This document shows positions 2,283 to 40,771 of a DNA stretch of 64,000 nt, in pieces (the stretch's first letter is position 1; each line of letters opens with the position of its first letter). The DNA comes from Parcubacteria group bacterium (GTDB taxonomy: Bacteria > Patescibacteriota > Minisyncoccia > Phycocordibacterales > UBA2100), in the NCBI GenBank assembly GCA_943358385.1, contig CALRGX010000005.1:2886-66885 (forward strand). The letters are read 5' to 3'. The position numbers and the translations under genes are program-made. Under the pieces are notes generated by a model that did no database searches, had not been told where the DNA came from, and was given only the letters and a program-made list of their open reading frames with translations.

Positions 2283-2489
2283 TGATGGGTCTCGGGTACC
2301 TGGCTCGTCAGAGCTCTACACAGGTGGACGAGGTGAAGGGGGTGCGTACAATAGCCACAACACTCGTTTTATAGGCGTGTGATTAATAGCGTTACAACGC
2401 ATACATATGAAAGCAATACTAGGAATCGTGATTTTGATCGTGCTCGCAGCGGGCGGCTGGTACCTCTACGACAAAAAGAGTGCAGAAAA

Positions 2490-2957
2490 ATGGCACAAGA
2501 CGATGCGGCCATGAAAGCCGAAATGATGGCAAATGATCCAGATGGGGACGGTGACGACCACATGATGGGCACATCGACCGACGACATGATGATGGGTACA
2601 TCCAGCATGGCAACCTCGAGCTCTGCAACATCAACAGGCATGATGGATGACAAAAAGACGGAAGAAGTGGCTTCAGCGCCAGGAGCACCAGTCTTCACCA
2701 TGACCGGCAAAAATTTCGAGTTTTCCACGAAGGAGATGAAAGTAAAAAAAGGAGATAAAGTAACGGTGATTTTCGAGAGTTCGAGTGGATTCCATGATTG
2801 GGTGGTTGATGAATTTAAAGCAGCAACCAAACAGGTGAACCCTGGAACCAAGACATCGGTAACGTTTGTCGCAGATAAAACCGGCACGTTTGAGTACTAC
2901 TGCTCGGTAGGCAAGCATCGCCAGAGCGGTATGGTAGGGAAGTTGATTGTTGAGTAA
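2490..2957 (+). CDS. Cupredoxin (type-1 copper) domain protein with Met-rich linker; probably frameshifted from an upstream TM anchor ORF (2407..2511)
   Basis: The C-terminal domain has FHDW...YYCSVGKHRQSGM, matching the His/Cys/His/Met T1Cu ligand pattern. A Met/Asp/Gly-rich segment (DHMMGTSTDDMMMGTSSM) precedes it. A 34-aa TM ORF (MKAILGIVILIVLAAGGWYLYDKK...) lies in the +1 frame and overlaps at an A5 run at 2486-2490. Confidence 0.6.
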   Translation: MAQDDAAMKAEMMANDPDGDGDDHMMGTSTDDMMMGTSSMATSSSATSTGMMDDKKTEEVASAPGAPVFTMTGKNFEFSTKEMKVKKGDKVTVIFESSSGFHDWVVDEFKAATKQVNPGTKTSVTFVADKTGTFEYYCSVGKHRQSGMVGKLIVE

Positions 2958-7787: not shown

Positions 7788-8507
7788 ATGATTCAACATT
7801 TTTCTATAACCGGAATGCATTGTGGTGCGTGTGTTAAAAAAGTCGAAGCGGCCGTAGGTGCGCTTGCAGGGGTGCGAGTGGTGCGGGTCGACCTTGCGTC
7901 GCAATCAATAGTACTCGAACACGACGCGCCACTTGAGCGCGCTGTAGTGTCACATGCTATAGCCGCTGCCGGGCCATACGTTCTTGGCGACGCCCAGAAC
8001 ATAGTAAAGACACCACCTGCATCCGGTGGGGTTATACGCAGGGTTATGCCGCTCCTTCTCATGCTTGTGTTGGTAACCCTCTTTGCCCTCTTAAAGCAAA
8101 TATTTTTTGCATCGCCGGCCACATTCCATGGGCTAATGCAGGATTGGATGGCCGGATTCTTCTTGCTATTTGGAGTGCTGAAGGTTATCAATCTGAAGAA
8201 ATTTGCCCTCATGTATCAGGGGTATGATGTCGCGGCAAAGCGTTTCCCGTGGTGGGGTTACCTGTACCCATTTCTGGAAGTGGGTCTGGGTCTACTCTTC
8301 CTGTTTGGCGCTGCGCTCGTTTTTGCGAATGTGGCAACAGTCGCGCTGATGGGTTTGGGCATGATTGGCATCTACAAAAAAATCCACTCCGAAGGAGAGG
8401 TGCAGTGCGCGTGTCTGGGAGGATTTTTCAATGTGCCAGTCACCTGGTTTACGTTTGCTGAAAATGGATTGATGGTGGTGATGGCTGTGTGGATGCTTTT
8501 GCAATAG
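7788..8507 (+). CDS. HMA (heavy-metal-associated) domain fused to MauE/DoxX-family redox-associated membrane protein
   Basis: The N-terminus ITGMHCGACVKKVEAAV is an HMA ferredoxin-like metal-binding motif. The C-terminal 4-TM domain with LYPFLEVGLGLLFLFG and QCACLGGFF is clearly homologous to the ORF at 35873..36517. Confidence 0.6.
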   Translation: MIQHFSITGMHCGACVKKVEAAVGALAGVRVVRVDLASQSIVLEHDAPLERAVVSHAIAAAGPYVLGDAQNIVKTPPASGGVIRRVMPLLLMLVLVTLFALLKQIFFASPATFHGLMQDWMAGFFLLFGVLKVINLKKFALMYQGYDVAAKRFPWWGYLYPFLEVGLGLLFLFGAALVFANVATVALMGLGMIGIYKKIHSEGEVQCACLGGFFNVPVTWFTFAENGLMVVMAVWMLLQ

Positions 8508-32960: not shown

Positions 32961-33009
32961 GGTCGTGCCTACTATACCACTCTCCCTGGGTAGGTGTTTA
33001 CGCTGAATA

Positions 33010-33038
33010 TTGACGTGGAACGTACTTGAAAGTATAGT
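33010..33038 (+). promoter_or_regulatory. Strong sigma70-like promoter driving ssrA
   Basis: TTGACG (33010-15), a 17-bp spacer, then TATAGT (33033-38). Confidence 0.6.
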
Positions 33039-33044
33039 CCAAAA

Positions 33045-33107
33045 CGGTGTTAGGTGCGGTGTAACTAAGTGGATCGGACCCGGGGGCGGTACCCGGCGCC
33101 TCCACCA
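33045..33107 (+). ncRNA. ssrA: tmRNA acceptor (3') piece of a circularly permuted ssrA
   Basis: A T-arm-like hairpin CCGGG-ggcggta-CCCGG is followed by CGCCTCC-ACCA. This is the 3' acceptor strand, discriminator and CCA, and it lies upstream of the 5' GGGGGCG strand. Confidence 0.55.
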
Positions 33108-33149
33108 AAAACACATCGCTCTGTTCTTTACAGAAGGTGTGCTTTTGCT

Positions 33150-33340
33150 GGGGGCGAAATAGGATCGACGACCACCCAAAAGCTCCGCTGCTTCAACGCA
33201 AGCCGAAGCACCAACTCAAGTGCCAACCATCAGGACGGCGCTGTTCACGCCTAAGGGCTGAACGGGGTTCGGGGAGTACCTGGCAACAGAAACTCCCCAC
33301 TCATACCATGGGCCCGCTCAAAGAGAGCGGGCCCAACTCA
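33150..33340 (+). ncRNA. ssrA: tmRNA coding (5') piece of permuted ssrA
   Basis: It begins GGGGGCGAAATAGGATCGACG, which resembles the tmRNA 5' end GGGGcugauucuGGAUUCGACG. Its GGGGGCG is complementary to the upstream CGCCTCC. It contains a short reading frame ending TAA (a candidate tag ...ANHQDGAVHA) and a terminal hairpin GGGCCCGCTC-aaagag-AGCGGGCCC. Confidence 0.55.
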
Positions 33341-33420
33341 TATCTGAGTGAATTTGACACTAGTATTTTACGGTGGTACTATATAAAAGGTACAGTAGGA
33401 AACCAAAGGAGAACAGACGA

Positions 33421-34854: not shown

Positions 34855-35166
34855 TTGCTATGCTCCTCGTATATGGCGGAGAGCCCCAAAGAAGTGTGCC
34901 CCATCACCAAAGTAGCCGAGCTCCTCTCGGATACCTGGACGATGCTTATTATGCGAGCCCTCACTGAAGGGTCCAAGCGATTTACCGAGCTAGAGGTATG
35001 GTTGGGTGACATATCCTCACGCACGCTCACTCTGAAGCTGGCCAAGCTGCAAGAGCAAGGCTTGGTAGAAAAAACCCAAGAAGGCACCTACCAGGCCACC
35101 AAAAAAGGGAAGGGCTTGAAAATGATTGAAAAGGCAATGGTGAAGTACAGTAAGGAGTATCTGTAG
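34855..35166 (+). CDS. HxlR-family winged-helix transcriptional regulator
   Basis: CPITKVAELLSDTWTMLIMRAL...RFTELEVWLGDISSRTLTLKLAKLQEQGLV is the HxlR-type HTH. It is divergent from an FMN reductase gene. Confidence 0.65.
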   Translation: MLCSSYMAESPKEVCPITKVAELLSDTWTMLIMRALTEGSKRFTELEVWLGDISSRTLTLKLAKLQEQGLVEKTQEGTYQATKKGKGLKMIEKAMVKYSKEYL

Positions 35167-35196
35167 TTCTTGCCTGTGCACTACGGCAAAGTTGGG

Positions 35197-35202
35197 TATA
35201 AT
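35197..35202 (+). promoter_or_regulatory. -10 box (TATAAT) for tRNA-Ser
   Basis: TATAAT lies 9 nt upstream of tRNA position 1. No clean -35 is present. Confidence 0.4.
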
Positions 35203-35211
35203 CCAACCCAC

Positions 35212-35301
35212 GGAGGGTTCGCATAGTGGTCTAGTGCACGTCCCTGGAAAGGACGAGTCTGGGAAACCGGACCGAGAGTTCGAATCTCTCACCCTCCGCC
35301 A
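35212..35301 (+). tRNA. tRNA-Ser (anticodon GGA), CCA encoded
   Basis: The acceptor GGAGGGT/ACCCTCC is followed by GCCA. The anticodon loop is CTGGAAA, and the long variable arm is GTCTGGGAAACCGGAC. Confidence 0.85.
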
Positions 35302-35322
35302 ACACAATTTAGTCTCGGAGTC

Positions 35323-35357
35323 AACTCACTTGCCTGAGCAAGTGGTGCGACTCACAT
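35323..35357. repeat. Left copy of imperfect direct repeats flanking the AT-rich islet (AACTCACTTGCCT ... GCGACTCACAT), containing palindrome CACTTGC-ctga-GCAAGTG
   Basis: ACTCACTTGCCT and GCGACTCAC recur at 37653-37667 as GCGACTCACTTGCCT. ACTCACAT recurs at 37729-37736. Confidence 0.5.
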
Positions 35358-35371
35358 ACATAAATTGCAAC

Positions 35372-35402
35372 AAAAAAACACGATAATCTCGTGTATTTTT
35401 TG
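35372..35402. terminator. Bidirectional terminator (tRNA-Ser on + and the island operon on -)
   Basis: AAAAAAACACGA-taatc-TCGTGTATTTTTTT. Confidence 0.65.
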
Positions 35403-35417
35403 TTGCAAGAGTAACTC

Positions 35418-35837
35418 TCAATAAGACTTTAGCCACTCATTCATCATTTTAATTTCAACCTCTTGAGCTTTTATTATATTCTCTGCAAAAGTCCTAATTT
35501 CAGGATTTACAGTTTTGTCTTGTAGTAACAATTTGGCCATGTCTACAGCACCTTGATGATGAGGTATCATGCCAGCAATAAATTCTTTTTCTAGAGCTTT
35601 ACCTGTTTTACCTTTCATCATCCCGACCATGTCTGTCATGGTCATATCCATCATACTGTTACCAGTATTCATCATCATTGAACCATCTGGCATTTGATGC
35701 ATATTCTGCATTGTTTTCTGTGCACCAGTTAGATTGTTTATTCGCTCTTTATCTTTCTGTACGATATCTCCGAAGTGAAATACCCATGTAGAGATGAGTG
35801 CTATTGCTAATACGATTGTAGAAATTTTGTAATTCAT
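35418..35837 (-). CDS. DUF305-family protein with Met-rich segment (copper-associated four-helix-bundle family)
   Basis: Signal peptide, the Met-rich run MQNMHQMPDGSMMMNTGNSMMDMTMTDMVGMM, and the DUF305 motif GMIPHHQGAVDMA. Confidence 0.65.
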   Translation of the reverse strand: MNYKISTIVLAIALISTWVFHFGDIVQKDKERINNLTGAQKTMQNMHQMPDGSMMMNTGNSMMDMTMTDMVGMMKGKTGKALEKEFIAGMIPHHQGAVDMAKLLLQDKTVNPEIRTFAENIIKAQEVEIKMMNEWLKSY

Positions 35838-35872
35838 AAATCTGTTTATTAATTAATAATACTTTGGGGACA

Positions 35873-36517
35873 TTACATTGCCATATGCCCCATACTTAAA
35901 GTTGTGATCACCATATAGAGAGCCATAAGTGCCATAAATAGATTCTCGAAAAGAGTTACCTTTGTCATTGGTACAGAGAAAACTGTTCCTAAGCATGCAC
36001 AAGGTATCTCATCTTTGTTTTGAAGTGCTTTCCAGACCCCTATAGTACCTATAGACATAATAATAAAGGTAAACACGTCTCTGTATATTCCACCAATGAC
36101 AAAGAAGTACAGTACTCCAAGCCCTATTTCAATAAATGGATACAGAAGTGCGTATGTGCGAGACTTCTTTGCCAAGATATCATACGTCATGTAAGCGTCT
36201 GCAAAAGCACTCAAATTGGGTAGTTTAAATAATCCAAAAACAAGAAAGAAATAGGACATCATGTACATCATTCCTGTCATAAAGCTATAATCTTGTTTGA
36301 GATACATAGAGACAATAGTCAAAATTGTAATGACTCCGATCATAGCTATTAATGGTAATAGTTTTTGGAAAGTTGATTGATGTGGAAGATTCAAGACTTT
36401 TATTGATTGTTCGGTTTTGTGGTGTTCACAAAAGTAATGAGGACTACCATTTGTGTTCTCATAATAGGTGCCAGCCATACTACACTTCTCACATTTGTTG
36501 TATTTTATTGCATGCAT
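35873..36517 (-). CDS. MauE/DoxX-family redox-associated membrane protein with N-terminal zinc-ribbon-like domain
   Basis: The N-terminus CEKC...FCEHH is followed by a 4-TM domain with LYPFIEIGLGVLYFFV and IPCACLGTVFSVPMTKVTLFEN. It is a paralogue of the C-domain of 7788..8507. Confidence 0.6.
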   Translation of the reverse strand: MHAIKYNKCEKCSMAGTYYENTNGSPHYFCEHHKTEQSIKVLNLPHQSTFQKLLPLIAMIGVITILTIVSMYLKQDYSFMTGMMYMMSYFFLVFGLFKLPNLSAFADAYMTYDILAKKSRTYALLYPFIEIGLGVLYFFVIGGIYRDVFTFIIMSIGTIGVWKALQNKDEIPCACLGTVFSVPMTKVTLFENLFMALMALYMVITTLSMGHMAM

Positions 36518-36522
36518 ACAAT

Positions 36523-36888
36523 TTAATGTTGAACGCTTTCACTTCCATGATGATCTTCACCAAGTAGTGTGTTATCCATAACATAATGAGAAAACAACAT
36601 AAAAAGTATTGCTAAAATTACCACAACTGCAAGATTTCTCTTTTCTATTTTGAATCTGTCTTTCAAGAAAAATGTTACATAGGTGATAATCATTCCAAGG
36701 CCAAGAAGTATTCCAGCGTATGACGGATTATCAAGATAATGCTGTATACCACCTGACAAAAATCCAGTTGCAAACGAAAGTCCTGTGATTATAAGAAAAT
36801 AATTTAGGTTGATTTTTTGCCCATGTTCTTTTGCTTCTTTAATATTTCCTATAATAGTGAAGATTAGACCTATACCAATTAGAACCAC
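36523..36888 (-). CDS. Small integral membrane protein, His-rich C-terminus; start may lie upstream (non-ATG)
   Basis: It has 3-4 hydrophobic helices and a C-terminus EDHHGSESVQH. The in-frame hydrophobic sequence continues upstream to 36993 without an ATG. Confidence 0.45.
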   Translation of the reverse strand: MVLIGIGLIFTIIGNIKEAKEHGQKINLNYFLIITGLSFATGFLSGGIQHYLDNPSYAGILLGLGMIITYVTFFLKDRFKIEKRNLAVVVILAILFMLFSHYVMDNTLLGEDHHGSESVQH

Positions 36889-37008
36889 ATATCTAGTAAC
36901 TCCATTTTGGAGTGTTCCGATATGAACTACTGACCCTGCGATAAGGGCAACTCCTAAATATTTGCAATATAAGTAAAAAATGCATAATGTGATTTATTTA
37001 TATCCATA

Positions 37009-37281
37009 CTATTTCCTCTTTAGCTTATAGACTTTAATAATCTCCTCTTGCATTTCCTTGATTCGACTTTTATTTGTGTCTTTTGTAAGACAGTGGGCAA
37101 GGTGGCTCTGTAGCATCTCATCTTCAAGGGAAGAGATGGCACTTTTTATAGCACTTGTTTGAGTAATGATATCAATACAGTATTTATCTGCTTGAATCAT
37201 CTTTTCAACTCCCTCCAGTTGTCCCATTATGCGTTTAATGCGACTAACTATTTTTTTGTTATCTTTGTGTACTCCGTGCAT
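37009..37281 (-). CDS. csoR: CsoR/RcnR-family metal-sensing transcriptional repressor (copper-sensing CsoR-like)
   Basis: VSRIKRIMGQLEGVEKMIQADKYCIDIITQTSAIKSAISSLEDEMLQSHLAHC carries the DUF156 pattern with conserved Cys...His...Cys ligand positions. Confidence 0.75.
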   Translation of the reverse strand: MHGVHKDNKKIVSRIKRIMGQLEGVEKMIQADKYCIDIITQTSAIKSAISSLEDEMLQSHLAHCLTKDTNKSRIKEMQEEIIKVYKLKRK

Positions 37282-37283
37282 AT

Positions 37284-37367
37284 TTATTTACAGCAATTAG
37301 AACCACAATTTGAACAAGCACACTTCTCACATTTACATGTGATACAAGAGCATTTTGTATTTTTCAT
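37284..37367 (-). CDS. 27-aa Cys-rich peptide (MKNTKCSCITCKCEKCACSNCGSNCCK), candidate metallothionein/Cu-binding peptide; first gene of csoR operon
   Basis: I translated the minus strand by hand. It gives 9 Cys in 27 aa, in CxC and CC motifs. The stop TAA lies 2 nt before the csoR ATG. The ORF is below the size cutoff of the ORF track. Confidence 0.5.
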   Translation of the reverse strand: MKNTKCSCITCKCEKCACSNCGSNCCK

Positions 37368-37421
37368 AATAATAGAGATATTGTAGTGGGTTATGGTAAT
37401 GGACTAGAATATCTTGTATAT

Positions 37422-37450
37422 ATTATATACCCTATGGGGGTATATTGCAA
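37422..37450 (-). promoter_or_regulatory. Promoter of the Cys-peptide/csoR operon with CsoR-like operator in the spacer
   Basis: On the minus strand the promoter reads TTGCAA - 17 bp - TATAAT. The spacer contains the GC-rich pseudo-palindrome ATACCCTATGGGGGTAT (37427-37443), which resembles known CsoR operators (TACCC...GGGGGTA type). Confidence 0.55.
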
Positions 37451-37652
37451 CTAGTCTATAAGCGTTAATTCTTTATCTTTATACACGATCTTGCTCCGCA
37501 GATTTGCTAATAGCTCTCGCTTCTCTGTGACCGCACCCTCTTTCAGAATGTATTTTGCATAATTTCGTATATCAGTATCAGGTGCTTATTTCTCTAGGTG
37601 TCTCATTTGTCTCATTTTCATCTAAAACCCTTTGTTTTATTACTGGGAGATA

Positions 37653-37667
37653 GCGACTCACTTGCCT
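37653..37667. repeat. Right copy of direct repeat (GCGACTCACTTGCCT) bounding the AT-rich islet
   Basis: It matches the left-flank segments at 35323-35335 and 35347-35355. Confidence 0.45.
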
Positions 37668-37827
37668 CAATGAGACACTCTAAAAAGTGCTATAATACAC
37701 TTACAAGGCCTCAAGTCGTGGGTACTTAACTCACATGGCCCGCAAAAATAAAGAGACAGAAGCGAAAGCTTCTGGCGATTATATTTTTGTAGGAAGGGTG
37801 AAAGATTCGAAGGCCGGAGGCGGGGGT

Positions 37828-37960
37828 CCCCAAAAGCTTTTGGGGCGCCGAGGCAGGGTCGTGGAATTTTCAAGTGCGACGGCACTTGAAAATATCCCTG
37901 ACCGAATCCCGGTCAAAAGTCTGCATCTACTGATACAGCTTTCGACCCTGCCTCGCGCCG
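37828..37960 (+). other. Highly structured ~130-nt element (candidate ncRNA or MITE-like repeat)
   Basis: A perfect 18-bp palindrome CCCCAAAAGCTTTTGGGG lies at 37828-37845. A 13-bp long-range stem pairs CGAGGCAGGGTCG (37849-61) with CGACCCTGCCTCG (37943-55). Inside it are the hairpins TTTTCAAGTGC-gacg-GCACTTGAAAA and GACCG-aatcc-CGGTC. Confidence 0.4.
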
Positions 37961-38381
37961 ACGCGCTCCGGCCTTGCGAAGCTGCGCACGGCTCGCTTCT
38001 CACCCCTCCGCTTTGTTCAAGAGAAAGCTTCAAGATAAAGAGAGAAGTTCGCCGCCTTCGCATGTATACTTTCAGTATGTGGATTCACCAGCGCTCGCTG
38101 CTCATCGGTGCTGCCTTCGCACTTCCATTTTTCGCTGCAAATGTGCTGGTAGCTTTGCAGGCAAAACTATTCCTTTGGCTCCTGCGCCCCCTGGGGCATA
38201 CCACGCTGGATGAAGAAATCGCCCAGCCCCCAGCCGATAAGGGCAATAAAAGCACACAGAACACCCCACGAAAGTGACATGGGGGAAGTGTAGCATCGCT
38301 GCCACAGACAGCTCGGCAGTATGTACATTGCGTTCACGTGTGTGCTAATGTAATTCGGGTTTAGCTACAGGAGAGTGCTAC

Positions 38382-38801
38382 GTGCAGCAACTTGAAGTAA
38401 CGGATCGTTCCCCGGGCGCACAAATACAGGCGGTCCTCATCCAGGTGAGTGACCAGGTGGCGCACAGCAGTGCTATGCGCTGGCTTTGCCGTGTCGTGTC
38501 TCTCGTCCCCGGAGGAATACAAACCTTCAGTGTCGTCCTCATTATCATCGCTGGCCTCGTGCCAATGGTGCTGATGGGTGTTGCGGTAGCCGTGGCAGAA
38601 AAGCTCTGCGCGCGCCGCGTAGGGTTGCTGCCCGCGCAGTATATCGGGGCGACCTGCTATCTGCTCACCCTCTTAGGGGCTGCAGTGTTCAGCAACATAG
38701 CGCTCGTACTCTTTGCACTCACCACGCTCTTTTTGATAACGGGCTGGTTCATCAGTGCGGTACCTGCAGCATCAGTGAGTAAAAAGGAAACCGCGGAATA
38801 G
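38382..38801 (+). CDS. Small hypothetical membrane protein
   Basis: It has three hydrophobic helices and no recognisable domain. A terminator follows. Confidence 0.4.
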   Translation: MQQLEVTDRSPGAQIQAVLIQVSDQVAHSSAMRWLCRVVSLVPGGIQTFSVVLIIIAGLVPMVLMGVAVAVAEKLCARRVGLLPAQYIGATCYLLTLLGAAVFSNIALVLFALTTLFLITGWFISAVPAASVSKKETAE

Positions 38802-38816
38802 TCACCGCCGTATGGC

Positions 38817-38847
38817 GAAACCACTTCAGAGAAGTGGTTTCTTCTTT
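38817..38847 (+). terminator. Rho-independent terminator
   Basis: GAAACCACTTC-aga-GAAGTGGTTTC is followed by TTCTTT. Confidence 0.7.
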
Positions 38848-38885
38848 AATGGAAATATATCTGAAGTACGTGGTATCATAAAAAT

Positions 38886-39278
38886 ATGAACGACGAGCAG
38901 TGGAAAGAAAAACTCACGGACGAGCAATTCGAGGTCATGCGCCAAAAAGGGACCGAGCTGCCTTTCACGGGAGACTACTGGGACACCAAAACGCCTGGCA
39001 AGTATCGCTGTGCTGGTTGCGGTGCTGAATTGTTTGATTCTGATACGAAATTTAATTCCGGGACTGGTTGGCCTTCCTTTGCAGAGGCCAAAGAGGGCGC
39101 TGTTCGTTTTGAAAAAGATGCCAGCCTTGGCTTGGAGCGAACGGAAGTGGTGTGTGCGCAGTGTGGTGGGCACCTTGGGCACGTTTTTGAAGACGGACCT
39201 GAAATGGTGAATGGGAAGGAAACCGCTGGCAAGCGCTATTGCATTAACTCCTGTGCCTTGAATCTTGAGGAAAAATAA
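38886..39278 (+). CDS. msrB: Peptide-methionine (R)-S-oxide reductase MsrB
   Basis: YRCAGCGAELFDSDTKFNSGTGWPSF...CAQCGGHLGHVF carries the SelR CxxC pairs and the catalytic Cys. Confidence 0.8.
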   Translation: MNDEQWKEKLTDEQFEVMRQKGTELPFTGDYWDTKTPGKYRCAGCGAELFDSDTKFNSGTGWPSFAEAKEGAVRFEKDASLGLERTEVVCAQCGGHLGHVFEDGPEMVNGKETAGKRYCINSCALNLEEK

Positions 39279-39380
39279 GTACCGCTCTCCACTGCTGAAT
39301 ACCGTGTTATGCACTACACCCGCTTGCGGGCTCTAGGTGGGGCAGGCACAATGAGGCTACTTAGCAATTTATAAAACCCT

Positions 39381-39791
39381 ATGTTTGAAGTAAATCTATT
39401 GGCAGTTCTTGTGGCAGCAGTCGTCAACATGGCGATTGGCATGGCCTGGTACAACCCGAAAGTATTTGGTACGTCGTGGATGAAGATGGTAGGCCTAACT
39501 CCTGAGCTCGGCGAGATGGGCAAGAAGAAAATGCCACTCCATGCGTTCTTTGGTTTGCTCGCAGCATTTGTGATGGCATACGTCCTTAACCACTTTGGTA
39601 TCGCATGGGGAGTGTTCGATTGGATCGGTGCTGTCGAACTTGCCTTCTGGGTCTGGCTCGGCTTCTTGGTACCAGTTCTTCTTTGGCCTGCACTCTGGGA
39701 GATGAAGCCATGGAAATTGGTGGTCATCAACGCCAGCTATTGGCTGGTTGCCTTGATTGCAACATCATCAGTGTTGATGTTTTTTGCGTAA
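39381..39791 (+). CDS. DUF1761-family membrane protein
   Basis: It has four TM helices, and MAIGMAWYNPKVFGTSWMKM is DUF1761-like. Confidence 0.5.
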   Translation: MFEVNLLAVLVAAVVNMAIGMAWYNPKVFGTSWMKMVGLTPELGEMGKKKMPLHAFFGLLAAFVMAYVLNHFGIAWGVFDWIGAVELAFWVWLGFLVPVLLWPALWEMKPWKLVVINASYWLVALIATSSVLMFFA

Positions 39792-39807
39792 CAAGACCAG
39801 TAATCAT

Positions 39808-39838
39808 GAAAACGGCCGCGCGACGCGCGGCCGTTTTC
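39808..39838 (+). terminator. Rho-independent terminator
   Basis: GAAAACGGCCGCGCG-ac-GCGCGGCCGTTTTC. Confidence 0.75.
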
Positions 39839-39866
39839 ATATACCACCGTATGCTATCCTTTCCGT

Positions 39867-40334
39867 ATGGTTTTCAATGCGCGCGCAGCAGTGTACGGCT
39901 TTATCGCACTGCTCTCTATTATCGGCATCGGCATAGCATTTTCATCCATGGGCGGATACTACGAACATGCGTCACAGACTCCCTACGAACGATTAATCAC
40001 GGTAGGCGGCACGCCATTTAAGGTGGATGTTGCCGATACGCCAGCCGAGCGAGAGCGTGGGCTTTCCAATACGCCACCGCAACCACCGCGCGCCATGTTG
40101 TTTATTTTCGATTATGACGAACAGTGGGGTATATGGATGAAGGACATGAACTATCCTATAGATGTGCTCTGGATTACCGCTGATTTGCAGGTGGTTCAGA
40201 TAGAGCCTAATATGCATCCCGCATCGTTTCCACGCGTGTATCGAGCCAGCATTCCCGTGCGCTACGTGCTAGAGCTCCCAGGAGGGACCATCGAGGCATA
40301 CAATCTTGCCGTAGGTAATCAAGTAGTGCTCTAA
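39867..40334 (+). CDS. DUF192-family protein (COG1430)
   Basis: It has a TM anchor, and RGLSNTPP...MLFIFDYDEQWGIWMKDMNYPIDVLWI...YVLELPGG matches the DUF192 core. Confidence 0.55.
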   Translation: MVFNARAAVYGFIALLSIIGIGIAFSSMGGYYEHASQTPYERLITVGGTPFKVDVADTPAERERGLSNTPPQPPRAMLFIFDYDEQWGIWMKDMNYPIDVLWITADLQVVQIEPNMHPASFPRVYRASIPVRYVLELPGGTIEAYNLAVGNQVVL

Positions 40335-40360
40335 AAGGGGCGCATGATAAACTGCGCCCG

Positions 40361-40771
40361 ATGAAGCGAGTCCTCATAACTGGCGGAGCGGGCTTTATAG
40401 GGCACCACGTCGTGGACTACCTCCTCGAGAGAACCGATTGGCAGCTGGTTTTGCTGGATCGCCTCGACACCTCGGGTGATTTGAATCGCCTCACCCATCT
40501 TCCCATCTGGCCGGCTCAGAAAGCACGCGTCACTTTCGTACATCACGATTTGAAAGCTCCATTCAACGAAGCGATATGTGCGCGCCTCGGGAGTATCGAC
40601 TACATCTTTCATTTGGCCGCATCGACGCACGTTGATCGAAGTATCAGTGACCCCATGCTTTTTGTGGGCGATAACGTCGTAGGAACGGGGCACTTGTTGG
40701 AATACGCACGCACACTACCCGCGCTTTCACTGTACTCTTTTGTGTCGCATCCGTGTATACATTTTATATAG
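40361..40771 (+). pseudogene. Truncated NAD-dependent epimerase/dehydratase (RfbB/GalE-like) N-terminal fragment
   Basis: MKRVLITGGAGFIGHHVVDYLL is the Rossmann GxxGxxG motif, and DYIFHLAASTHVDRS is present. The ORF stops after 136 aa, whereas full-length enzymes are about 310-350 aa. Confidence 0.55.

What the first reader, a model, noticed from the sequence alone, without database searches (positions are those of the whole stretch)
37422..37450. CsoR-type operator sitting exactly in the 17-bp spacer of the islet promoter
On the minus strand the promoter reads TTGCAA, then a 17-bp spacer, then TATAAT. The spacer is the GC-rich pseudo-palindrome ATACCCTATGGGGGTAT. This closely resembles described CsoR operators (TACCC-N-GGGGGTA type, for example the Bacillus copZA operator as I recall it). 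A repressor bound between -35 and -10 is the classical arrangement for Cu-dependent derepression. It ties the Cys-peptide/csoR/membrane/MauE/DUF305 genes into one Cu-responsive unit.
Basis: partly seen in the sequence, partly recalled or inferred. Interest (0 to 1): 0.55.

Follow-up and report, generated by a model that had tools for sequence, protein, structure and literature searches.

The report
CsoR copper-repressor operator inside a promoter
A textbook binding site for a copper-sensing repressor sits between the two halves of the promoter of a small, horizontally acquired copper-handling operon in a Parcubacteria-like genome; it is a real regulatory site, but of an already well-understood kind.

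Summary
On the minus strand 37450..37422 reads TTGCAA-17 bp-TATAAT. A perfect 8+5+8 pseudo-palindrome, ATATACCCCCATAGGGTATAT (37445..37425), fills the spacer and overlaps both hexamers. Its core TACCC-N5-GGGTA is unique in the 64 kb, with 0 matches in 100 shuffles. It matches published, experimentally bound CsoR boxes: TAC-X9-GTA, and TATACCCnnnnnGGGTATA.

The csoR gene downstream keeps the Cu(I) ligands Cys35/His60/Cys64 and the DNA-contact residues.

In 79 genome loci with csoR relatives, mostly labelled as Patescibacteria, the motif lies within 350 nt upstream of csoR in 72, and five more carry a one-mismatch version. Only 5 hits occur in the other 533 kb. The motif is almost always nested the same way between TTGACA and TATAAT. 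In 55 of 80 sites csoR starts 6-9 nt after the -10, which implies leaderless mRNA and independently validates the promoter.

Relatives place copper-type P1B ATPases, or the same membrane/MauE/CopM-like genes, behind this unit.

Best reading: apo-CsoR occludes the promoter and Cu(I) releases it, giving an autoregulated five-gene operon. No binding or transcript data exist.

This is a new member of a known kind. Side finds are an unannotated 27-residue, nine-cysteine first cistron and the portability of the 2-kb module.

The parts
37445..37450 (-). -35 hexamer TTGCAA (4 of 6 to TTGACA; relatives mostly have TTGACA or TTGACT)
37425..37445 (.). CsoR box: 21-bp pseudo-palindrome ATATACCC-CCATA-GGGTATAT. 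The core TAC-N9-GTA lies at 37428-37442.
   Evidence: 8-bp arms; literature; conservation
37422..37427 (-). -10 hexamer TATAAT, abutting the GGGTA arm of the core. The predicted start of transcription near 37415 is inferred, not mapped.
37284..37367 (-). First cistron: unannotated 27-aa peptide MKNTKCSCITCKCEKCACSNCGSNCCK with 9 Cys, metallothionein-like. It has a leader of about 47 nt with no obvious Shine-Dalgarno sequence.
   Evidence: 12 DNA versions keep the frame and every Cys; no Pfam or NCBIfam match; not in the protein collection
37009..37281 (-). csoR, 90 aa. It carries Tyr34-Cys35, His60, Cys64, the RIKR (RLXR) motif and Gln41. It lies downstream of its own operator, so it is autoregulated.
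   Evidence: PF02583, 3e-25; alignment to 4ADZ and 4M1P; best NCBIfam hit is RicR, below its cutoff
36523..37007 (-). Membrane protein gene with a His-rich C-terminus. It encodes 161 aa in other copies. Here a 1-nt deletion in an A-run at 36961-36963 shifts the frame, leaving a 121-aa ORF at 36888..36523.
35873..36517 (-). MauE-family membrane protein with an N-terminal Cys/His segment (CxxC...C-x-HH). I read that segment as TRASH/YHS-like by eye only.
   Evidence: PF07291, 3.5e-14; 42% identical to a native HMA-MauE fusion at 7788..8507
35418..35837 (-). DUF305 / CopM-like protein (the family of the copper-binding protein CopM)
   Evidence: searches (PF03713, 3e-20; NF049983 CopM domain, 74 bits, below the cutoff of 90), PMC4335983
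35365..35408 (-). Intrinsic-terminator-like hairpin (stem-loop 35394..35378 followed by a T-run) inside a longer inverted repeat. It marks the end of the operon.
   Evidence: I5
37451..37579 (-). Last 129 nt of a large serine recombinase gene, which is intact in L004 and present in L007. Its TAG stop codon abuts the -35 hexamer.
35212..35301 (+). tRNA-Ser(GGA). Its 3' end faces the 3' end of the operon, and the AT-rich islet begins just beyond it.
   Evidence: the same geometry in L001 and L004

Best explanation
The 21-bp pseudo-palindrome at 37425-37445 is the operator of the CsoR repressor encoded 140 nt downstream. It fills the spacer of a sigma-70-type promoter. Bound apo-CsoR would therefore block RNA polymerase; by analogy with S. 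lividans CsoR and CstR, two tetramers probably bind per site. When Cu(I) binds the Cys35/His60/Cys64 site, DNA affinity falls and one polycistronic mRNA is made. That mRNA encodes a nine-cysteine peptide, CsoR itself (negative autoregulation), a membrane protein, a MauE-type membrane protein and a CopM-like DUF305 protein, and it ends at the hairpin near 35380. The whole unit is cargo of a decayed, tRNA-adjacent integrative element acquired by a Kaiserbacteria-like (Parcubacteria) genome.

Shown: the sequence features, their uniqueness in the window, their conservation and their placement.

Inferred: binding, stoichiometry, the copper effector, the transcription start and co-transcription.
For: - Sequence: the promoter and palindrome are as described. 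The core is unique in the window, with 0 of 100 shuffles matching.
- Match to bound operators: TAC-X9-GTA and the conserved positions ATACCC/GGGTAT of the S. lividans consensus (12 of 12). It is an exact fit to TATACCCnnnnnGGGTATA of B. liaoningense, where the box overlaps the -10 and csoR mRNA is leaderless by 5'RACE. It also resembles the EMSA-tested S. aureus sites and the RicR site TACCCCGCTGGGTA.
- Protein: PF02583. The ligands C-H-C, R14/R17 and Q41 align with S. lividans residues whose mutation (R57A, Q81A) abolishes DNA binding.
- Comparative: 73 motif hits fall in the 26.9 kb upstream of csoR in 79 loci, against 5 hits in the other 533 kb. 69 of 74 sites sit in a promoter scoring at least 9 of 12, with the box 0-5 bp after the -35 and abutting the -10 or overlapping it by 2 bp. 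Five of the six loci without an exact hit have a one-mismatch box in the same place. 55 of 80 sites have the csoR start codon 6-9 nt after the -10.
- Copper context: 29 relatives place a P1B ATPase after csoR. Sixteen carry the CPC/YN(x4)P/M(x2)SS signature and ten carry CPH. The DUF305 protein is CopM-like.
- Operon: intergenic gaps are 1-35 nt and a terminator follows. The block 37453..35416 is shared at about 95% identity across contexts.
Against: - There are no binding, footprint, transcript or metal-response data for this or any Patescibacteria CsoR.
- The CstR (persulfide) operator is almost the same sequence, so the DNA does not name the effector.
- C-H-C CsoRs can also respond to Zn and Cd in vivo.
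- This cassette has no efflux pump.
- The -35 hexamer matches only 4 of 6, and promoter-like hits are common in this AT-rich DNA.
- The leader before the first cistron has no Shine-Dalgarno sequence.
- The membrane gene is frameshifted in this copy, so part of the unit may be decaying.
- My search pattern fixed the arms TACCC/GGGTA, so arm invariance is partly built into the count. The relaxed search offsets this only in part.
Confidence: 0.85

Rival explanations
1. The site is a real operator of this CsoR-family protein, but the sensor responds to persulfide or another thiol-reactive signal, as CstR does, rather than to copper.
For: The S. mitis cst operator ATATACCCTTATGGGGTATAT is nearly identical in form. 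The operon has no copper pump. MauE-type proteins are linked to disulfide chemistry; this last point comes from my own knowledge.
Against: CstRs lack the His in the Y position, and this protein has His60 aligned with the CsoR ligand. Relatives with the same box are followed by copper-type P1B ATPases and CopM-like proteins. No sulfurtransferase, persulfide dioxygenase or sqr gene is nearby.
Confidence: 0.05
2. The palindrome acts as a nucleic-acid hairpin rather than a protein site. It would be a terminator for the upstream recombinase gene, or a recombination site marking the edge of the mobile module.
For: The homology between contexts starts 3 nt before the -35. The recombinase stop codon abuts the -35. 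The RNA can form an 8-bp stem of -9.4 kcal/mol.
Against: The fold is unremarkable (z = -1.5, and 15 of 200 shuffles fold as well) and no U-run follows it. The box is present in about 70 loci where I did not look for a recombinase. In most of them csoR starts within about 10 nt of the -10 element. Arm variants are one-sided (GGGTA to AGGTA or GGAGTA) with no compensating change.
Confidence: 0.03
3. The operator and promoter are ancestral features of the cassette, but the copy in this genome is a decaying remnant that no longer gives a working copper response.
For: Only 129 nt of the recombinase remain. The membrane gene has a frameshift. Neighbouring host genes (EamA, epimerase) are truncated relative to relatives that are 97% identical.
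Against: The promoter, operator, peptide ORF, csoR, MauE and DUF305 genes are all intact. The CsoR is 100% identical to copies found in many samples. A sister contig (L003) has the membrane gene intact, so the frameshift may be a strain variant or a homopolymer sequencing error.
Confidence: 0.1
4. It is a chance palindrome in AT-rich DNA with no function.
For: Promoter-like hexamer pairs are near the chance level here.
Against: 0 of 100 shuffles give the core. The motif is enriched roughly 290-fold upstream of csoR relatives and sits at a fixed place in the promoter.
Confidence: 0.01

Closest known systems
Streptomyces lividans CsoR and its type-2 operators (csoR-4375, copZA1, copZA2); PDB 4ADZ
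   Same: It is the best structural-sequence match of the window protein. The consensus ATATACCCCTNAGGGGTATAT, the essential TAC-X9-GTA and the N5 centre are all present here. The repressor also sits behind its own operator, so it is autoregulated.
   Different: The window protein is a minimal 90-aa version without the long N-terminal extension. Its targets are not copZA. The host is a Parcubacteria-like genome. The binding stoichiometry and Cu(I) release are untested here.
Bradyrhizobium liaoningense csoR-cueA CsoR box
   Same: The box TATACCC-N5-GGGTATA is matched exactly, and it overlaps the -10 element. Leaderless csoR mRNA was mapped there by 5'RACE, which is the arrangement inferred for 55 of 80 sites at csoR relatives, mostly labelled Patescibacteria.
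   Different: That system is a divergent promoter pair driving a P1B ATPase. Here there is one promoter, a peptide ORF lies between it and csoR, and there is no ATPase.
Mycobacterium tuberculosis RicR regulon (ricR, mymT, lpqS, socAB, Rv2963)
   Same: A CsoR paralogue binds TACCC-N4-GGGTA and controls a small cysteine-rich copper metallothionein, MymT, as well as itself. RicR is the best NCBIfam hit, though far below its cutoff.
   Different: MymT is 53 aa (from my own knowledge) and is transcribed separately. The peptide here is 27 aa, matched no Pfam or NCBIfam family (I did not compare it with MymT directly), and is the first cistron of the csoR operon.
Staphylococcus aureus CsoR with copA and the horizontally acquired copXL locus
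   Same: CsoR boxes (ATACCtataGGGGGTAC, ATACCctggGTGGGTAT) lie in the promoters of copper genes carried on a mobile element, and binding was shown by EMSA.
   Different: The cargo there is an ATPase plus a lipoprotein, and the regulator is chromosomal. Here the repressor travels with the cargo.
CstR persulfide sensors
   Same: The operator architecture is nearly identical, and the protein belongs to the same superfamily.
   Different: CstR lacks the ligand His, and this protein has it. The gene context here is copper-type.

Membership tests
Type-2 CsoR operator (CsoR box) | 5'-TAC-X9-GTA-3' inverted repeat, shown to be essential for binding in S. lividans | tested here: met
   TAC CCCCATAGG GTA at 37442..37428. 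Definition from PMC3902906.
Type-2 CsoR operator (CsoR box) | [quoted passage not shown] | tested here: met
   ATATACCC-CCATA-GGGTATAT. 12 of 12 at the most conserved consensus positions, and 17 of 20 overall.
Type-2 CsoR operator (CsoR box) | Lies within or overlaps the core promoter of csoR or a copper-homeostasis operon | tested here: met
   It sits between the TTGCAA and TATAAT hexamers. The same placement is seen in 69 of 74 sites in relatives.
Type-2 CsoR operator (CsoR box) | Conserved upstream of orthologous regulators (phylogenetic footprint) | tested here: met
   72 of 79 loci have an exact-pattern hit and 5 more have one mismatch. Only 5 hits occur in 533 kb elsewhere.
Type-2 CsoR operator (CsoR box) | Bound by the cognate apo-CsoR and released by Cu(I) | not testable with these tools
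   Needs EMSA, anisotropy or ITC.
Cu(I)-sensing CsoR (PF02583, C-H-C clade) | Membership of the Trns_repr_metal fold family | tested here: met
   PF02583 at 3.1e-25 and 88.8 bits against a cutoff of 22.8. PDB hits 4ADZ, 4M1P and 2HH7.
Cu(I)-sensing CsoR (PF02583, C-H-C clade) | x-C-H-C ligand fingerprint (Cys, His, Cys) preceded by Tyr | tested here: met
   Y34-C35, H60 and C64 align with YC...H..HC of 4ADZ and 4M1P.
Cu(I)-sensing CsoR (PF02583, C-H-C clade) | RLXR motif on helix 1 and the Gln on helix 2 needed for DNA binding | tested here: met
   R14-I-K-R17 and Q41 align with S. lividans R54/R57 and Q81.
Cu(I)-sensing CsoR (PF02583, C-H-C clade) | Cu(I) binding with allosteric loss of DNA affinity | not testable with these tools
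   Biochemistry is required.
CstR (persulfide sensor) | Two Cys but no His at the Y position | tested here: not met
   His60 is present. Criterion from PMC8643695.
RcnR / type-1 operator | A single unbroken G/C tract (TACT-G6-N-AGTA), a RASK motif and H-C-H-H ligands | tested here: not met
   The G/C tract here is split. The protein has RIKR and C-H-C.
Metallothionein (for the 27-aa first cistron) | Very high Cys content in C-x-C / C-x-x-C arrays with no aromatic residues | tested here: met
   9 Cys in 27 residues, in the pattern C-x-C-x2-C-x-C-x2-C-x-C-x2-C-x3-CC. Every Cys is kept in 12 DNA versions.
Metallothionein (for the 27-aa first cistron) | Sequence membership of a described metallothionein family | tested here: not met
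   No Pfam or NCBIfam hit at E<=0.01.
Metallothionein (for the 27-aa first cistron) | Translated, and binds metal in thiolate clusters | not testable with these tools
   Needs peptide chemistry or proteomics.

The most novel reading that the evidence does not exclude
The operator controls a self-contained, mobile copper-sequestration module that has no efflux pump. Its first product would be a new, minimal (27-aa, nine-Cys) bacterial copper metallothionein, too short for gene callers and therefore invisible in databases. The module spreads among ultra-small Patescibacteria on serine-recombinase elements that insert next to tRNA genes.
Probability: 0.4. Interest if true: 0.55.

Novelty: new member of a known kind. 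Interest (0 to 1): 0.3.

Why it matters
This gives one well-founded cis-regulatory assignment in Patescibacteria (candidate phyla radiation). I know of very few assigned promoters or operators in this group, and my one literature search found no paper on CsoR operators there. The same TTGACA-box-TATAAT unit recurs in about 75 of the 79 genome loci, and it usually drives a leaderless csoR mRNA. It could therefore serve as a ready-made regulon marker and as a copper-inducible promoter part for these uncultivated bacteria. The operator itself adds nothing new to CsoR biology. The unannotated Cys9 peptide and the portability of the promoter-to-stop module are the parts worth a follow-up.

Tried and rejected
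- B. subtilis copZA operator. A full-text search for TACCCTACGGGGGTA found nothing, and Smaldone & Helmann 2007 (PMC3019219) is not held. That comparison is unverified, so I replaced it with the S. lividans, S. aureus, B. liaoningense and RicR sites.
- Second CsoR box in the window. Only weak one- or two-mismatch look-alikes turned up (17960, 44581 and 8606, the last inside a coding region). None is credible.
- Native copper-related genes at 2379-2957 and 7788-8507. I saw no box in the 230 nt upstream of the second; the stretch upstream of the first was covered only by the window-wide scans.
- Hairpin or terminator reading. Rejected: z = -1.5 and no U-run.
- Exact look-up of the Cys peptide. 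It is absent from the protein collection. At 84 nt it is shorter than the usual gene-caller minimum as I recall it, so I ran no further search on it.
- Empty integration site. I looked for one through the neighbouring SelR gene. Relatives L091 and L092 share only 38196-40731, so the exact insertion junctions stay undefined.
- The 12-nt direct repeat at 35324 and 37656 could be chance, so I do not rely on it.

Full report
**What is in the sequence.** On the minus strand the window reads ...GACTAG TTGCAA TATACCCCCATAGGGTA TATAAT ATATAC....
- The promoter scan lists TTGCAA (37450..37445), a 17-bp spacer and TATAAT (37427..37422). It is the joint top hit in 35000-38500, at 10 of 12.
It is ATATACCC-CCATA-GGGTATAT, with 8-bp perfect arms and a 5-nt centre, at 37445..37425. 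It overlaps one base of the -35 and three bases of the -10. The fold confirms the 8-bp arms.
It is one base out of register with the true spacer, which is a trivial correction.
- The core TACCCNNNNNGGGTA occurs once in 64 kb and never in 100 shuffles. With one mismatch allowed, only one unrelated site appears.
- Promoter-like hexamer pairs are close to chance in this AT-rich stretch (14 found, 9.9 expected). The promoter call therefore needs outside support.

**The genes behind it.** Five minus-strand ORFs follow in tight order.
- A 27-aa ORF at 37367..37284.
- csoR at 37281..37009, after a 2-nt gap.
- A membrane protein gene from 37007, after a 1-nt gap.
- A MauE-family gene at 36517..35873, after a 5-nt gap.
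- A DUF305 gene at 35837..35418, after a 35-nt gap.
- A terminator-like hairpin at 35394..35378 with a T-run.

Pfam gives PF02583 for csoR (3e-25), PF07291 for MauE and PF03713 for DUF305. NCBIfam places the DUF305 protein nearest the CopM metallochaperone domain, and places CsoR nearest RicR; both hits are below their cutoffs. CopM is a copper-binding protein involved in copper resistance (PMC4335983).

The CsoR aligns best with S. lividans CsoR (4ADZ) and Geobacillus CsoR (4M1P). Tyr34-Cys35, His60 and Cys64 fall on the ligand columns. R14/R17 and Q41 fall on the RLXR and Gln positions, and the R57A and Q81A mutations at the corresponding S. lividans positions abolish DNA binding.

**Comparison with operators that have been tested.**
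- The S. lividans work defines a 21-nt type-2 consensus, ATATACCCCTNAGGGGTATAT. It has an N5 centre, and the TAC-X9-GTA repeat is indispensable. The window site has TAC-X9-GTA and all twelve of the most conserved positions.
- It fits the B. liaoningense box TATACCCnnnnnGGGTATA exactly. That box overlaps the -10, and csoR mRNA there is leaderless by 5'RACE.
- S. aureus copA and copX boxes bound in EMSA have the same form, as does the RicR site TACCCCGCTGGGTA.
- One caution: the persulfide sensor CstR uses an almost identical operator, ATATACCCTTATGGGGTATAT. What separates the two sensors is the ligand His, and that His is present here.

**Comparative test.** A scan of one genome per species returned 79 loci with csoR relatives at 35-100% identity. 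Most records are labelled Patescibacteria (Paceibacterota, Parcubacteria and many 'uncultured Candidatus Saccharibacteria'); several are labelled only 'bacterium', and a few carry other labels (Gammaproteobacteria, Chloroflexia, Nocardiopsaceae).
- TACCC-N3-7-GGGTA lies within 350 nt upstream of csoR in 72 loci. That is 73 hits in 26.9 kb, against 5 hits in the remaining 533 kb.
- Five of the six exceptions carry a one-mismatch box in the same place. The change is one-sided, for example GGGTA to AGGTA, which argues for protein recognition rather than a hairpin. The sixth exception, L081 (labelled Chloroflexia), has what looks by eye like a related box inside a TTGACT...TATACT promoter.
- 69 of 74 exact sites sit in a promoter scoring at least 9 of 12. 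The box starts 0-5 bp after the -35, and it ends flush with the -10 or overlaps it by 2 bp.
- In 55 of 80 sites the in-frame csoR start codon lies 6-9 nt after the -10, most often 6 nt. This is the geometry of a leaderless mRNA. It validates these hexamers as real promoters independently of the operator.

**What the unit regulates elsewhere.**
- The close family (70-87% identical CsoR) mostly carries the same membrane/MauE/DUF305 genes.
- 29 loci place a P1B ATPase after csoR instead. Sixteen have the Cu(I) signature CPC/YN(x4)P/M(x2)SS and ten have CPH. The assignment of these signatures to copper is established knowledge of P1B subgroups, recalled rather than looked up.
- This supports copper as the effector, even though this cassette has no pump.

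**Mechanism.** I conclude that apo-CsoR binds the box and blocks RNA polymerase, and that Cu(I) binding at Cys35/His60/Cys64 releases it. The result is an autoregulated five-gene transcript.
- Shown: the motif, its uniqueness, its placement, its conservation, the ligand and DNA-contact residues, and the gene packing.
- Inferred: binding, two-tetramer stoichiometry, the effector, the start near 37415 and co-transcription.
- Confidence: 0.85.

**Wider context.**
- The islet is 33-36% GC in a genome of about 52% GC. It lies just beyond tRNA-Ser(GGA).
- The named relatives of the flanking class II ribonucleotide reductase are Kaiserbacteria and Parcubacteria.
- The identical CsoR occurs in at least four different neighbourhoods. 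The shared DNA, about 95% identical, runs from 37453 (3 nt before the -35) to 35416 (the DUF305 stop).
- In L004 and L007 a large serine recombinase gene lies just upstream. L034 shares the same upstream DNA, but I did not check its genes. The window keeps only the last 129 nt of that gene, and its stop codon touches the -35.
- In the window, L001 and L004 the module's 3' end faces the 3' end of a tRNA gene. For L001 and L004 the tRNA was recognised by eye from the sequence, not with a tRNA finder.

**Verdict.** The observation and the interpretation both stand at the level sequence analysis can reach. The site is a canonical CsoR box, so it is a new member of a known kind and of modest interest. 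The more unusual items are secondary to the finding: the conserved but unannotated Cys9 first cistron and the portable, pump-less module.

Noticed in passing
window 37284-37367 (-): An unannotated 27-aa ORF with nine Cys is the first cistron after the operator. Twelve distinct DNA versions in relatives keep the frame and every Cys, with TGT/TGC swaps, while other residues vary. It matches no Pfam or NCBIfam family and is absent from the protein collection. From memory, its C-terminal C-A-C-S-N-C-G-S resembles the Neurospora copper metallothionein.
   Followed up: partly
window 36961-36963 (membrane gene 36523-37007, -): There is a one-base deletion in an A-run relative to L003 and L001. It shifts the frame of a 161-aa membrane protein after about 15 codons. 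Sister contig L003 from the same context is intact, so this may be a strain variant or a homopolymer error.
   Followed up: yes
window 35416-37453; loci L001, L004, L007, L034: The promoter-to-stop module (2.04 kb) is about 95% identical in at least four unrelated neighbourhoods. In L004 and L007 a large serine recombinase lies upstream. The window keeps only that gene's last 129 nt (37451-37579).
   Followed up: partly
window 35324-35335 and 37656-37667: A 12-nt direct repeat, ACTCACTTGCCT, brackets the AT-rich islet just beyond tRNA-Ser. It may be an attachment-site remnant, but a repeat of this length in 3 kb could be chance.
   Followed up: no
window 38196 and 40731: Relatives that are 97% identical (L091, L092) share only 38196-40731. 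In the window the EamA transporter gene is cut to its first roughly 28 codons. The epimerase is cut to 136 aa (330 aa in L091, 337 aa in L092), so the surroundings of the islet are rearranged.
   Followed up: partly
window 33006-33345 (+): A two-piece (permuted) tmRNA scores 122.9 bits on the Alphaproteobacteria tmRNA model, with tag peptide ANHQDGAVHA. The flanking genes, however, point to a Kaiserbacteria/Parcubacteria host.
   Followed up: no
window 7788-8507 (+) and 2379-2957 (+): The host has its own fusion of an HMA domain (GMHCGAC) to a MauE membrane domain, 42% identical to the islet MauE. It also has a cupredoxin-like protein. I saw no CsoR box in the 230 nt upstream of the fusion gene, and the window-wide scans found no credible second box.
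   Followed up: partly
window 37795-37811 (minus-strand reading): A fragment resembling the T-arm and 3' end of the tRNA-Ser gene lies in inverted orientation in the GC-rich stretch between the islet and the truncated EamA gene. Neither ARAGORN nor Rfam calls a tRNA there.
   Followed up: no
loci L009-L087: In 55 of 80 sites at csoR relatives, mostly labelled Patescibacteria, the csoR start codon lies 6-9 nt after the -10 hexamer. This implies leaderless csoR mRNAs as the rule in this group. Loci with the Cys peptide are the exception.
   Followed up: yes
window 36420-36517 (N-terminus of the MauE gene, -): The MauE protein starts with a soluble Cys/His segment (KCEKC...HYFCEHH). It looks like a TRASH/YHS-type metal-binding module, but Pfam gave no hit at E<=0.01.
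   Followed up: no
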